Positions 10,262 through 63,481 of a stretch of DNA of 64,000 nt are shown piece after piece. This DNA is from Octopus vulgaris. Lineage: Eukaryota. The stretch spans positions 138,322,001 to 138,386,000 of the forward strand of contig OX597818.1 in the NCBI GenBank assembly GCA_951406725.2. The letters run 5' to 3'. The notes under the pieces are model-generated. The model searched no databases and was not told the origin of the DNA. It worked only from the letters and a program-made list of their open reading frames with translations. A program made the position numbers and the translations under genes. How positions within the stretch are numbered: position 1 is the first letter of the stretch; each line of letters opens with the position of its first letter.

Positions 10262-10429
10262 ATATACTTTATTTAAAGCAGCAGAAAATTCAACAAAATC
10301 TGTTACTCTGAGTTTCTTGTTGCCGTTCATCAGACAGTTTTTGCTAGCAAAAACTGTCTGATGAACGGCAACGAGAAACTCAGAGTAACAGATTTTGTTG
10401 AATTTTCTGTTGCTTTAAATAAAGCATAT
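10262..10429. repeat. Spacerless palindrome (about 84-bp arms) carrying twin hammerhead motifs
   Basis: Arms are reverse complements around gctagc (10343-10348) with about 3 mismatches. Abuts (TA)n. Confidence 0.9.
10354..10391 (+). ncRNA. Minimal type-I hammerhead ribozyme motif (mirror copy at about 10300-10337, -)
   Basis: ctgt-CTGATGA-acggcaacga-GAAA-ctcagaG-TA-acag. Stem I is ctgt/acag and stem III is the quasi-palindromic ctc-a-gag. Stem II pairs poorly. Confidence 0.6.
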
Positions 10430-12434
10430 TACTCTACCACTGGTATGTGAGCACTCTTTTTTCCACCTTGTTTCACATTTATGTGTTTACTCCGGTATAT
10501 ATATATATATTATATAATTGTAGCGAATGATAAATAAATGATCAATCGTACTCCTTCCTGACTCAAGTTTCTTCAGTTTTATATTCACACACGACGAATG
10601 CCCAAATTTAAACTTGGAATCATATAATAAAACTACCTATAGTACTGGGTACTTCTAAAGGTGGACGAACTTTACAATGTACTCTACCATGTTTCTAAGG
10701 GAATACACACACACACACACATATATATATATATATATATATATATATATATATATATACGTTGGGCTTCTTTCAGTTTCCGTCTACCACATCCATCCAC
10801 AAGACTTTGATAAGCCCGTGGATATAGTAGAAGACACTTGCCAAAGGTGCTACGCAGTGGGACTGAACCCGGAACAATGTGGTTGGTGGGCAAGCTACTT
10901 ACCACGCAATATATATATATATATATATATATATATATATATATATATATATATATATATATATAATATGCTTTTGCTATGAGGATTCAAGGAATATCAA
11001 CGCAGAAATGGCTAGGTAAAATATATTGATCTTGAAGTCATTAAGTTTTTGTAGGATACCATAGAAATACAAGTACCAAATCTTTATGTGTGTGTTTCTG
11101 TATGTTTGTGTGTGTGTGTGTGTGTGTGTGTGTGTGTGTGTGTGTGTGTGTGTGTGTGTGTGTGTGTGTGTGTGTGTGTGTGTGTGTGTGTGTGTGTGTG
11201 TGTGTGTGTGTGTGTGTGTGTGCTTATTTATCTGTTTATTTCTTTAACTTTGTAATGAACGATCACTCATATTTATTTGCCCCTGATATCTATTTATCTG
11301 TCTATATATATGTGTGTGTGTGTGTGTGTGTGTGTGTGTGTGTGTGTGTGTGTGTGTGTGTGTGTGTGTGTGTGTGTGCGTATGTCTGTATGTATATCCA
11401 TGCATCTACTAATCTGTTTGTATGTCTATCTGTTTATCTATCTATCTCTCGTTTGTCTTTCTATACATCTGTCTATCACTGATACCAATTTGTATTTTAC
11501 ATACATCTATCAATCAACCAATAAATTAGTCAATCAGTCAATCAATCAATCAAGCATTCAATCAATCAATCAATCCGTGTGTCTCGCTATCAATTCTCAT
11601 GCCCTTTTATCTATCTGTACATACATCTATCCAACCAGTAGCCATCCATCCATCTTTCTACTTGGTAATCTGTCTATCAATCCCTCTATCTATCTAGCTG
11701 CCTGTCTATCTCTTATTCTGTCCATCTAATTATCTATCTGTTTGTCTGCACGTTTCTGTCTGACTGACAATCTCTCTCTCTCTCTCTCTCTCTCTCTCTC
11801 TCTCTCTCTTTCCCCCCTCTCTCTCTCTTTCCCCCCCCTCTCTCTCTCTCTCTCTTTCCCGCTCTCTCTCTCTCTCAAATTTTGTCCTTTACTCTTAATA
11901 GTGCCATCCCTGTGGCTTGTCTATATTTTCGGTTTGGCGTATTTCTGAAGTGACTATGCTGTATTTGTTAGAAGAGATAACAATAAAGGGAGAGGGGTGG
12001 AGAGACGGAGATAAAAATTGTGAGAGACTTATATGGTGGTGTGAAGAAGAGCGAAAGAATACAAGATATACAGATAGATGGATATATGAATGCCTATATA
12101 TGTATACGAGCACCAACAATTCGATTTCTTCGAAAGTCCGATAGATCTGTCATTTTAATGAATTTTAAATACCTTTTTCTGGTGATATCTGAAAATAAAC
12201 AGCAATTTTAGCAAAACCTATTGAGCAACATTAATGATAAATCATAAAACATAAAAATAAACAAGGTTGTGACGGTTTTATAGATATTTCAAAATTATGA
12301 TGCTAAGTGTTTCCATTATTTTGTCCAACCCCTGTGTATATATGTGTGTGTGTGAGCGCGCGCGCGTGTGTGTGAGCGCGCGCGCGTGTGTGTAATGAAG
12401 GAATAAAAGAATATACATATTCTTTTATTTTCTT

Positions 12435-12800
12435 ATTTGTTTCAATCATTTGACTGCGGCCATGCTGGAGCACCACCTTTAGTCGGGCAAATCGACCCTA
12501 GGACTTATTCTTTGTAAGCCTAGTACTTATTCTATCGGTCTCTTTTTGCCGAACCGCTAAGTTAAGGAGACGTAAACACACCAGCATCGGTTGTCAAGCA
12601 ATGCTAGGGGGACAAACACAGACACACAAATACACACATTTACGACGGGCTTCTTTCAGTTCCCATCTACCAAATCCACTCACAAGACTTTGGACGGACT
12701 GATGCTATAGCAGAAGACACTTGCCCAAGGTGCCACACAAGGAATCCGAAATCATGTGGTTGGTAAGCAAGCTACTTACCACACAGCTACTCCTGTGCCT
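12435..12800 (-). mobile_element. SINE family C
   Basis: Similarity to the other family C copies. Confidence 0.85.
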
Positions 12801-13303
12801 ATATATATACACCTCCTAATATAATAATGAGCGAAGTGCTTTTATATATTTGTATATATATATATATATATATATATATATATATATATATATTTGTCCA
12901 GAATCACGCCGGACGCGGAGGAGGAAAGAAAATAGTAATTCAGTGAAGGAGAAGTAGTGAGAGTAATTGCCCTGACTGAAATGGAGTGAGAGAAAGTAAT
13001 AGCAATGAGAGAAAGGAGGGGTGGTAGGTGAATAGGGAAGGAATGGGTGAAAAACTTAACGTTTCAGCTCTGTGTAAGTATATGTGTGTATGTGTATGCG
13101 TGTACAAGGGAAGTATGTGAATGTTTGTATGTGTGATTATTATGTACCCCTTATTTTGTACCTTATTTATATATGAAATACTATTAACCGTCATTATTGA
13201 CGGAACATTGTCAGTTAGTATATATATATATATATGTAGGTCCCGGGTTGAGTCGGGGTTAACCACAGTAAATAAGGTACTCAATACATAGCAGAGTAAA
13301 TTA

Positions 13304-13450
13304 ATTTATTTTATAGAAGGAGCTTCTACAGGACTAGAACTGTTTCATTCAAATGAAATCATCAGGAAGCTTCTTGACACCAAGCTTCCTGATGATTTCA
13401 TTTGAATGAAACAGTTCTAGTCCTGTAGAAGCTCCTTCTATAAAATAAAT
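13304..13450. repeat. Palindrome (69-bp arms, 9-nt spacer) carrying twin hammerhead motifs
   Basis: 13304-13372 is the reverse complement of 13382-13450. It sits inside an insert flanked by (TA)n. Confidence 0.9.
13383..13433 (+). ncRNA. Type-I hammerhead ribozyme motif (identical mirror copy at 13321-13371, -)
   Basis: agcttc-CTGATGA-t ttca tt tgaa t-GAAA-cag ttctagtc ctG-TA-gaagct. Shows a 6-bp stem I, short stem II, 3-bp stem III and a GUA cleavage triplet. Confidence 0.75.
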
Positions 13451-61538: not shown

Positions 61539-61730
61539 TGCTAGGAGCGTTCAAAAAGTCTCCGATCTTATTTTATCCCGCCAAAAGTTATTCTATGTGG
61601 GCAAAACCATTTGGGTTCGAGGTAACACCAACCTTCTTGCACATACTGGAAAATATTTGCGCCGGTAGGCCACGTCAATTCCCAGCTGTTAAGCCTAGAT
61701 TAAAGAAGGATACTTCTTGAACGCACCTCG
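61539..61730. mobile_element. Mariner-type MITE or internally deleted element
   Basis: aggagcgttcaaaaagt and acttcttgaacgcacctcg|TA form imperfect TIRs. Confidence 0.55.
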
Positions 61731-62532
61731 TATGTGTGTGTGTGTTTGTATGTCAATACAAATGTTTTGTCAATAGAGAAAGAACCGGTTTCTAACCTAA
61801 ATCCAAGGCTCCGTCATTCGAATTTCAACATCAACAGGGTATTTTTATGTATGTATGTCTGTATGTATGTATGTATGTATGTATGTATGTATGTATGTAT
61901 GTATTTATGTATGTATGTATGTATTTATTTACGTATGTATGTAGTATGTATGTATGTATCTATCTATCTATCTATCTATCTATCTATCTATCTATCTATC
62001 TGTCTGTCTGTCTGTCTGTCTGTCTGTCTGTCTGTCTGTCTGTCTGTCTGTCTATCTATCTATCTATCTATCTATATGTGCAGAATTGTACGTTTTATTT
62101 TACGTATGTATTCTCATACATATAGTTGCATGTGTTGTCATGTTCGTATATACTTAAATGAAAATTTCTGGAAATTTTTACAGTTCCAGTGATGGCTTGG
62201 ATCTGTAGTCTTCGAATCAGCATTTTCCTTTCAGGTTTTGAAAAGCCTGATTTCTCAAGATTATTATTTAAGCAGTGTGTTACTTATCTCATTGCCCCAA
62301 TAATTACAAGTATAACCTGAACATATAACCTGGATACAGTAACTGCAAATTCTTCAGTAGTTCAGCGTAGGGGTTCTCTTATGCATGCATGTATGTATGT
62401 ATGTATGTATGTATGTATGTATGTATGTATGTATGTATGTATGCATGCACGTATGTATGTGTGTGTGTGCATGTATGTATTTATGAATGTATGTATGTAT
62501 GTGTGTGCGTGTGTCTGTGTGTATGTGTACGT

Positions 62533-63095
62533 ACGTGGCCTGATCAATATGTATCCAGACTGTTGCCATAGTAACGAAGTTAAAGCACGCAGAGTGAGGC
62601 TGCTTGGCACAGATCGACCTTGATCTCTGCCGTGTATGCGCACTAAGTTTTCGCGTTCTAGCTAGCCGTGCTTGAAAGGAAGGTGTGTAGCGTGTGATTG
62701 TCGCATTGACCACGACAGAAAAAGTTGAACAGAGAATCTGCATCAAGTTTTACCAAAAGCTTGACGATATCTGCTCAGTGGCCTACGCAAAGTTTTTAAA
62801 AAGTTTTCATCGATCTCGACACAATTAAGGAGATCTTGTGCAACTGAAACCCGGGTTTCAAACTTGGCAGAAACTTGGCAAACACGTACCTCATACCCAA
62901 ATCTGCAGTGAAAATGAACTGAACCGTAATTCATCTGCACATCATCTGATAACTCACGGATGGTGTTTCGACGATCTCCCCTCACAACTACACACATCTA
63001 CAATGTTTTCCTTAGTTCTGCTGTTTGCGGGTCTCCCACAACGGTCGTCAATATCGGGCATCTGGAAATATCTGAGCCACACGTACATTATGTTG
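62533..63095. mobile_element. Rearranged mariner relic (5' end on +, following transposase segment inverted)
   Basis: The + strand gives TEKVEQRICIKFYQKL (62713-62790). The - strand gives YVWLRYFQ..DDRCGRP..DRRNTIREL..RVSVAQDLL..DENFLK (63095-62792). Confidence 0.75.
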
Positions 63096-63169
63096 GGGCG
63101 AAGTCATTTGACCCTGTTATCTCCCCTATTTTCGCTCTTGCGTCTCACGTTTGATCTCTGACTTCTGGC

Positions 63170-63481
63170 CAGAATCGCCATGTTGAATCGCTAGCTTCTG
63201 CACGCATTTTTTTTCTCTCCGTGTTTCTTTCCATGTTTCTTTTCTGTGTATCTTTCTGTTGAAGAGCGTAGGCTCGAAACGTAAAAGACTTGTTTTATTT
63301 ATATTCCTGAGTGCCATACTAATACAATTGTTTGTTTGTACTCCACCTGCCTTCGTCTTTTGTTTATTTTCATAAAGCTTCCCGTATATATATATATATA
63401 TATATATATATATATATATAAATAACGGGAAGCTTTATGAAAATAAACAAAAGACGAAGGCAGGTGGAGTACAAACAAACA
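63170..63481 (+). mobile_element. Penelope-like fragment with a variant minimal hammerhead (63251-63288) and a tail-to-tail inverted partial copy across (TA)n
   Basis: tcttt-CTGTTGA-a gagc gtag gctc-GAAA-CG-TA-aaaga. 63425-63481 is the reverse complement of 63330-63386. Confidence 0.65.

What the first reader, a model, noticed from the sequence alone, without database searches (positions are those of the whole stretch)
10262..63481. Window-wide pattern: diverse hammerhead-bearing or fold-back micro-elements target dinucleotide tracts, mostly (TA)n
At least six loci in 64 kb (10.3k, 13.3k, 55.3k, 56.9k, 59.5k, 63.3k) plus weaker remnants share hammerhead cores, inverted architecture and microsatellite flanks, yet no Penelope ORF is visible in the window. 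Inference: this is a high-copy, microsatellite-targeted non-autonomous ribozyme retroelement class that standard repeat annotation would probably leave unclassified. It may fall within known Penelope pLTR or retrozyme diversity; I cannot establish novelty here.
Basis: inference. Interest (0 to 1): 0.75.

Follow-up and report, generated by a model that had tools for sequence, protein, structure and literature searches.

The report
Stubs of Penelope retrotransposons, one retrozyme
The small hairpins and stubs sitting in TA repeats are the ribozyme-motif-bearing ends of known kinds of jumping genes (Penelope-like retrotransposons) whose protein-coding copies lie elsewhere in this genome, plus one fragment of a 360-base ribozyme-motif repeat that is likely pasted by the same enzymes, so they are not a new class, though their regular shape likely records how these elements are copied.

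Summary
The six loci are real but are four repeat families and one relic, not one class. 10.3k and 13.3k are head-to-head stubs of two Hydra-clade Penelope-like elements (PLEs); 55.3k and 63.3k are ends of a Neptune-type PLE; their ORFs lie elsewhere in the genome. 59.5k is a fragment of a 360-nt tandem hammerhead repeat (retrozyme) and holds no complete hammerhead; 55.3k is no fold-back; 56.9k is a decayed single relic. (TA)n targeting holds: 4,601 of 5,691 exact ends of the 10.3k family run into TATATA. Hammerheads in pLTRs, inverted copies, the tail and (TA)n bias are published, with an octopus Hydra family. Extra detail: in 57 of 59 fold-backs one arm ends at the tailed point and the other at the untailed point, and 36 of 42 position-sampled arms stop within 170 nt. 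Likely: both DNA ends are primed at two fixed RNA sites and copying runs off the transcript's 5' end; the retrozyme shows the same footprint. This scan noted the same pattern before on other DNA of this genome. Cleavage and circles untested.

The parts
10267..10347 (-). Family A (Hydra-clade PLE) inverted arm, ends at the untailed point, 66 nt short of the tailed end; its hammerhead copy has a stem II mismatch
10344..10495 (+). Family A direct arm with minimal type I hammerhead (core at 10358) and 66-nt tail, followed by TA; 4-nt overlap (CTAG) at the junction
   Evidence: 97% to the end of the full-length element in L153
13235..13372 (-). Family B (second Hydra-clade PLE) tailed arm with type I hammerhead (core at 13365), ends in TA
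13371..13454 (+). Family B untailed arm with type I hammerhead (core at 13389), ends in (TA)n
18841..18945 (-). Two 41-nt remnants of the family E tail region, each between TA tracts
55194..55409 (-). Family D (Neptune-type PLE) 216-nt solo end, variant core CTGTTGA at 55323, stem II damaged; TA on both sides; no inverted arm
56868..57011 (.). Old head-to-head relic, arms 73% alike, two damaged CTGATGA/TTGATGA cores; family not found
59389..59587 (-). Family E (360-nt tandem hammerhead repeat) inverted arm from the untailed end; holds only the 3' half of the hammerhead
59588..59804 (+). Family E direct arm ending at the tailed end (44 nt further), followed by TA; starts just after the predicted cleavage site
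63088..63385 (+). Family D 298-nt end with intact variant hammerhead (core at 63256), followed by (TA)17
63425..63481 (-). 57-nt family D 3' end, tail-to-tail across the TA tract; second insertion or local inverted duplication (unresolved)

Best explanation
Four of the six loci are short ends (pLTRs) of protein-coding Penelope-like retrotransposons of the Hydra and Neptune types, one is a fragment of a 360-nt tandem hammerhead-motif repeat likely copied by such an element's enzymes, and one is an unassigned relic. Shown: the stubs are joined to RT/endonuclease ORFs elsewhere; their 3' ends are fixed and run into (TA)n; head-to-head pairs combine one tailed and one untailed end; most arms are under 170 nt (A) or near 210 nt (D). 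Inferred mechanism: the GIY-YIG endonuclease cuts both strands in a (TA)n tract; the RT starts inside the pLTR at one of two fixed sites (as shown in vitro for an anole PLE); in the Hydra families each DNA end primes at a different site on an uncleaved RNA; copying runs to the RNA 5' end, which on a pLTR-initiated transcript is only 150-220 nt away; the two cDNAs are joined at short microhomologies, giving a palindrome plus tail. The stubs lack the upstream promoter and their hairpin is predicted to sequester the ribozyme, so they are likely dead on arrival. On a circular or multimeric retrozyme RNA the same process would give the inverted tandem arrays of family E.
For: ORF links: (A: two 726-aa ORFs in tandem in L152, 727 aa in L153 and L154; B: one frameshifted ORF in L155; D: broken ORFs in L156, L157, GIY-YIG Pfam E 7e-4, below cut-off). 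Clade motifs: RWK/RWR, DKT, YRDD, no CCHH in A/B; CX4CXXC linker in D (definitions). TA ends within 3 nt: A 48 of 61 tailed, 43 of 52 untailed; B 16 of 18, 14 of 22; D 45 of 53; E 12 of 15, 12 of 13; background 1.9%; genome-wide 4,601 of 5,691 for A, whose own continuation is not TA. Pairing: 36 of 38 A, 11 of 11 B, 10 of 10 E pairs are tailed+untailed, none alike; position-sampled A: 32 of 42 ends have an adjacent inverted arm, 26 of the 32 ending at the untailed point. Lengths: 36 of 42 are 38-169 nt, none 170-281, 4 reach the ORF; D: 15 of 29 are 202-225 nt. TCAG[T/A]T initiator-like words lie at both length peaks, a CCAAT box about 70 nt upstream in A (read by eye, initiator consensus recalled). 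Junction overlap >=4 nt in 14 of 30 against 18% of simulated joins, p 3e-4. Literature.
Against: Pfam found no RT family in any of these ORFs and PDB search nothing; clade calls rest on motifs and on comparison by eye with the published Hydra proteins, not on a tree. The Hydra linker CxCX5C reads CxFX5C in A and B. The BLAST-ranked sets fix one arm by the query, and the A junction set is biased to my own junction. One tailed+tailed pair (L269, counted twice) and 4 other inverted arms with other ends occur in the position sample. D shows no head-to-head arm in 28 of 30 loci, so two-ended priming is not shown for it. The in vitro anole study found no strand difference in start-site use. No transcription start was measured. 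No autonomous partner with E's ends was found, and E's ends match neither A, B nor D. One control end, next to a SINE's own internal microsatellite, was also TA-rich (26 of 47), and family B carries TA tracts inside its 3' UTR, so some flanking TA is not target.
Confidence: 0.85

Rival explanations
1. The short A, B and D stubs are self-propagating non-autonomous families (SINE- or MITE-like hairpin-plus-tail units) that are transcribed and re-copied as such.
For: Short copies far outnumber long ones (36 of 42); D has a tight size peak; CC-core variants of A were seen almost only in short copies (6 short, 1 of 282 nt, none ORF-linked among copies where the core could be read).
Against: Junction and arm lengths differ from copy to copy, as expected if each palindrome is made anew; stubs are about 97% identical to ORF-bearing ends; they lack the upstream CCAAT region. 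Promoter-bearing solo pLTRs may still act as masters, which I did not test.
Confidence: 0.1
2. The palindromes arise after insertion, or in assembly, by fold-back at self-complementary (TA)n, and the TA tracts grow later; hammerheads are incidental.
For: TA-centred inverted duplications of apparently unique DNA exist at 30039-30128 and 58003-58044; 63.3k has that geometry; the window is 13% simple repeat.
Against: A, B and E palindromes are centred on the element's 5' truncation, not on TA, and the second arm ends at a fixed internal point; opposite-strand joints inside the A pLTR also stand in contigs of other public runs. This rival may explain 63.3k only.
Confidence: 0.04
3. Family E is a viroid-like RNA with hammerheads in both polarities that replicates RNA-to-RNA.
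For: The antisense strand reads CCGATGA-AGCG-GAAA followed by a possible 7-bp stem III and a GUA site (read by eye); the monomer folds strongly as a circle (z -5.7 against 60 shuffles).
Against: No stem II, 2-bp stem I, fails the descriptor; it is the mirror of the sense stem I; one divergent contig of another organism breaks it at three places.
Confidence: 0.04

Closest known systems
Hydra-clade PLEs (Craig et al. 2021, PMC8557442; section 11 and passages read, supplement hits seen: Hydra-1_Obim from Octopus bimaculoides, Hydra-1_Amil)
   Same: C-terminal endonuclease without CCHH, RWK and DKT motifs, canonical hammerhead in the pLTR, (TA)n insertion, inverted 5'-truncated copy and tail at one end; by eye the Hydra-1_Amil hammerhead and its downstream tail resemble family A.
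   Different: A and B are other families than Hydra-1_Obim (different hammerhead, by eye); tail about 66 nt rather than 30-40; linker CxFX5C; U4C core subfamilies in A; B has a long microsatellite-rich 3' UTR.
Neptune-clade PLEs (PMC8557442 passages; minimal hammerheads in PMC4209133, parts 1-2 of 4 read)
   Same: CX2-5CXXC linker, GIY-YIG with internal cysteines, microsatellite bias, minimal hammerhead with an extra base before stem II and palindromic ACGU stem III.
   Different: Family D core has U at position 6 (CTGTNGA in 71 of 75 matches, overlapping loci included); mostly solo ends near 210 nt with no inverted arm.
Poseidon PAc of the green anole (Frangieh et al. 2024, PMC11167929, parts 1-2 of 4 read)
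   Same: Two internal RT start sites that define the tail; both strands cut and extended at AT-rich DNA; uncleaved RNA is the template.
   Different: In vitro no strand difference in start-site use; here genomic pairs are almost always one site each.
Metazoan non-LTR retrozymes (Cervera and de la Pena 2020, PMC7229834, passages; Li et al. 2026, bioRxiv 10.64898/2026.07.22.740005, part 1 of 5 and passages)
   Same: 150-400 nt non-coding tandem units, one type I hammerhead each with palindromic stem III, strongly self-paired; PLEs proposed as mobiliser.
   Different: Family E has a CCGACGA core and its insertions carry the PLE footprint (inverted arm, two fixed ends 44 nt apart, TA flanks), which the passages I read do not report; circles and cleavage untested here.
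Penelope elements of Adineta vaga (Arkhipova et al. 2013, PMC3846280, passages)
   Same: Head-to-head pLTRs, optional tail, palindromes and microhomology at the junction, mobilisation in trans by pLTRs alone.
   Different: That paper favours self-priming on an antisense template; the tailed+untailed rule here fits two-ended priming better.

Membership tests
Hydra-clade PLE (A, B) | Single ORF, RT then C-terminal GIY-YIG-type endonuclease, under about 3 kb | tested here: met
   727-aa ORF (A), frameshifted ORF of like layout (B), 38-45% alike; Pfam gave no hit; A unit is 3.4 kb with a 1.1-kb 3' UTR
Hydra-clade PLE (A, B) | RWK motif, DKG changed to DKT, CCHH absent, CxxC and CxH near the C end | tested here: met
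   RWK (A), RWR (B), DKT in both; CKLC/CRH and CDLC/CMH seen
Hydra-clade PLE (A, B) | CxCX5C linker | tested here: inconclusive
   Reads CxFX5C in both
Hydra-clade PLE (A, B) | Hammerhead in pLTR, (TA)n insertion, inverted copy and tail | tested here: met
Hydra-clade PLE (A, B) | Placement in the Hydra clade of an RT tree | not tested
   Reference proteins seen in the supplement were compared by eye only
Neptune-clade PLE (D) | CX2-5CXXC linker before a C-terminal GIY-YIG with CCHH cysteines | tested here: met
   CSRPYCRTC and CISCSLC..YIG in L038; GIY-YIG E 7e-4, below cut-off; Nematis not excluded
Neptune-clade PLE (D) | Intact autonomous copy | tested here: inconclusive
   The two ORF-linked copies fetched carry stops or frameshifts; no search for intact ones was run
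Minimal type I hammerhead | Core CUGANGA/GAAA/UH with stems I-III | tested here: met
   A (10358+) and B (both arms)
Minimal type I hammerhead | Canonical core in D and E | tested here: not met
   D has U6, E and part of A have C4; U4C and A6C are described as low-activity natural variants (PMC3088659 passages)
Minimal type I hammerhead | Self-cleavage | not testable with these tools
   No raw RNA reads were offered
Non-LTR retrozyme (E) | Non-coding tandem unit of 150-400 nt, one type I hammerhead per unit, dispersed arrays | tested here: met
   360-nt period, arrays up to about 10 units, 1,311 exact 31-mer matches
Non-LTR retrozyme (E) | Accumulates as circular RNA | not testable with these tools
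   Only contigs, none on record as RNA
One new non-autonomous class | Shared sequence or anatomy, no coding parent | tested here: not met
   Four unrelated families, three joined to ORFs

The most novel reading that the evidence does not exclude
The thousands of stubs are a genome-wide record of the PLE reaction: one RT dimer primes the two ends of a (TA)n break at two different fixed sites of one uncleaved RNA and runs off its 5' end, so that tail, palindrome and stub length follow from one mechanism; the same footprint on the 360-nt retrozyme is direct structural evidence that PLE enzymes paste retrozymes, and attenuated cores (C4, U6, or U3 in relatives) are kept because an uncleaved template is what gets copied.
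Probability: 0.5. Interest if true: 0.55.

Novelty: new member of a known kind. Interest (0 to 1): 0.3.

Why it matters
As a class claim it adds little: hammerhead-bearing pLTR stubs in (TA)n are published features of PLEs. Its use is as material: young families with uninterrupted ORFs and over 5,000 near-identical ends allow the open question of how PLEs make inverted repeats and tails (named as open in PMC8557442) to be tested by counting, and family A with family E gives an enzyme-passenger pair for an in vitro test of retrozyme mobilisation. Each stub is also a long perfect hairpin if transcribed through.

Tried and rejected
Rfam scan: only microsatellite and hairpin look-alikes below gathering score among the rows shown. 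The repeat finder was swamped by simple repeats. A seemingly fixed 5' end of family B turned out to follow a TA tract inside its 3' UTR. 52.3k (CTGATGA-TCG-GAAA between TA tracts) is the 3' end of another repeat with a variable 'core', not a hammerhead; 39.1k matches other repeat copies with a changed core. 56.9k: no other copy by DNA search, pattern or low-stringency BLAST against the loci; this does not show that it is unique. The B tail-only search returned nothing (uninformative). Pfam and PDB searches of the ORFs were blank but for one weak GIY-YIG hit. Expression: no RNA holder listed; contigs of four guessed-RNA runs pile up on the last 150 nt of family A and contigs of four other organisms cover family E, neither of which shows transcription, starts or circles. 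Counts were not properly de-duplicated; family counts are, while background, control ends and per-locus architecture come. Rows dropped: 3 A and 1 B ends at other offsets; A junctions of pairs over 400 nt or with gaps of 40 nt or more (8 of 38). Lunse et al. 2017 on PLE hammerhead variants was not held, so the U4C and A6U cores may be described there. Searches for prior print; none listed a paper on octopus hammerhead stubs or on retrozyme insertion footprints, but most subscription journals, Repbase and Dfam are not covered, and supplements of the bioRxiv preprint could not be seen.
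Full report
Setting. The window lies in a 2.8-Gb animal genome. It is likely an octopus: the ORFs found below resemble the published Hydra-1_Obim by eye, the SINEs look like octopus SINEs (recalled), and earlier notes of this scan say so. Thirteen per cent of the window is simple repeat, with 95 (TA)>=5 tracts.

Observation. Self-BLAST finds fold-backs at 10.3k, 13.3k, 56.9k, 59.5k and 63.3k but none at 55.3k. The loci fall into families A (10.3k), B (13.3k), D (55.3k, 63.3k), E (59.5k, with remnants at 18.8k) and a relic (56.9k), with no cross-match. 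A first hammerhead descriptor found 1 canonical and 2 relaxed sites, each matched by 5 of 100 shuffles. Widened after seeing the loci, it found 3 canonical and 5 relaxed sites, matched by 0 of 200 shuffles. The passing sites are A+, both B arms and both long D copies. 56.9k and 59.5k fail. Rfam showed no hammerhead family among the 150 rows printed.

Family A. Copies elsewhere share the layout (TA)n - inverted arm - direct arm with tail - (TA)n. One copy ran upstream into an endonuclease-like frame; searching with it gave 150 scored matches of 15,905 candidates, several in frames of 725 aa or more. 29 of the 30 loci fetched carry the A hammerhead. L152-L154 hold pLTR-ORF-pLTR units with uninterrupted 726-727 aa frames. 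Motifs RWK, DKT, YRDD, CxxC, CxH and no CCHH match the Hydra definition; the linker reads CxFX5C, not CxCX5C. Pfam and PDB were blank.

Family B. In L080/L155 the B end is followed directly by a frameshifted ORF 38-45% identical to A, then a long microsatellite-rich 3' UTR and a second B end.

Family D. In L038 and L041 the D end follows an RT (YIDD) with a CX4CXXC linker and GIY-YIG: Neptune type. Both copies are broken. D is mostly solo: 28 of 30 loci have no opposite arm. Its core reads CTGTNGA, position 7 varying and position 6 fixed as T.

Family E. The 59.5k arm matches a 360-nt tandem repeat; an exact 31-mer of its hammerhead occurs 1,311 times. Each unit has one type I motif with core CCGACGA, palindromic stem III and a long stem I; the circle folds at z -5.7. 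The window copy is cut so that neither arm has the whole motif. Contigs of two other organisms read TT at core positions 3-4, two others keep CC. No coding partner was found.

(TA)n targeting. Ends followed by (TA)>=3 within 3 nt: A 48 of 61 and 43 of 52; B 16 of 18 and 14 of 22; D 45 of 53; E 12 of 15 and 12 of 13. Background is 1.9%; control repeat boundaries gave 0 of 39, 0 of 50, 3 of 50, 0 of 8, 0 of 4, 1 of 18, 2 of 15, and 26 of 47 at a boundary beside a SINE's own microsatellite (loci not de-duplicated, boundaries approximate). Genome-wide, 4,601 of 5,691 exact A ends run into TATATA, though the element itself continues otherwise. That the TA predates insertion is inferred.

Architecture. 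A, B and E each have two fixed 3' ends, about 66, 65-69 and 44 nt apart. Of 59 head-to-head pairs, 57 join one of each and none join two alike; two had one odd end; the queries fixed one arm. In the first 42 exact A ends on contig C1, taken by position, 36 arms are 38-169 nt, none 170-281, 4 reach the ORF; 32 have an adjacent inverted arm, 26 ending at the untailed point, one pair tailed at both, four unclear. D arms found with a tail-only query are 202-225 nt in 15 of 29. Initiator-like words lie at both peaks (by eye). Junction overlaps of 4 nt or more occur in 14 of 30 against 18% of simulated joins (set biased to my junction). Most arms run past the predicted cleavage site, so the template was uncleaved. 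Transcribed fold-backs are predicted to pair arm to arm.

Mechanism. Shown: ORF links, fixed ends, TA flanks, mixed pairing, length ceiling. From print: an anole PLE cuts and extends both strands at AT-rich DNA, starts at two internal sites that define the tail, and uses uncleaved RNA (PMC11167929). Inferred: each DNA end primes at a different site; copying runs off a pLTR-initiated transcript; the two cDNAs join at microhomology. I had noted the two fixed ends before reading earlier notes; the wording of priming from both ends comes from them, and I then tested it. Rivals: self-propagating stubs (0.10), TA fold-back artefacts (0.04; may explain 63.3k), ambisense retrozyme (0.04).

Comparison. 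Minimal hammerheads in pLTRs, mostly single and sometimes on opposite strands 100-700 bp apart, are described (PMC4209133, parts 1-2 of 4). Inverted truncated copies, tail, (TA)n bias and the Hydra clade with an octopus family are described (PMC8557442, passages, section 11, supplement hits; PMC3846280, passages). Retrozymes and their proposed PLE link are described (PMC7229834, passages; bioRxiv 2026.07.22.740005, part 1 of 5 and passages). A 2026 octopus repeat annotation lists 31 recently active Penelope-like families and does not mention ribozymes (PMC13282606, passages). Low-activity U4C and A6C cores are known (PMC3088659, passages); review passages PMC6765202. My searches listed nothing on the mixed-end rule or on retrozyme footprints; coverage is partial. 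This scan has noted both on other DNA of this genome; look-ups by place and sequence found nothing for these loci.

Verdict. New members of known kinds; the class claim fails, the targeting claim holds. Interest 0.3, for the mechanistic record rather than for the elements.

Noticed in passing
window 30039-30128 and 58003-58044: Short inverted duplications of apparently unique DNA across a TA tract, the mirror copy lying between two TA runs; no hammerhead. A mirror copy of the flank also adjoins an A stub in L007.
   Followed up: partly
L153 1-1548; L152 245-661; L029, L078, L102, L048, L059: Different PLE families stack in the same TA tract or directly against each other (a second Neptune-type ORF abuts family A in L153; a third Hydra-type fragment lies in L152).
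   Followed up: no
L155 (family B 3' UTR, about 3 kb): The 3' UTR is mostly TA/TG microsatellite, so this element likely carries microsatellites with it.
   Followed up: partly
L158 2069-2070 (family E core positions 3-4): Core reads CC in this genome and two related organisms but TT in two others; the canonical CT was not among the listed differences.
   Followed up: partly
L017 about 1130-1790: A family A fold-back sits inside a LINE ORF with about 100 nt of the target repeated on both sides.
   Followed up: no
L269: An A pair with two tailed arms, one starting about 280 nt inside the ORF start: an exception to the mixed-end rule that shows a template running from pLTR into ORF.
   Followed up: no
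window 52310-52382: 3' end of an abundant repeat ending in TG/TA tracts, with a chance CTGATGA..GAAA; not a hammerhead.
   Followed up: yes
window 55491-55960 and 60151-60520: Two diverged copies (72%) of another interspersed repeat of 400-500 nt, unclassified here.
   Followed up: no
window 40433-41755: Tandem array with 64-68/128-nt periods interrupted at 41214-41446 by a copy of the 384-nt repeat found six times in the window.
   Followed up: no
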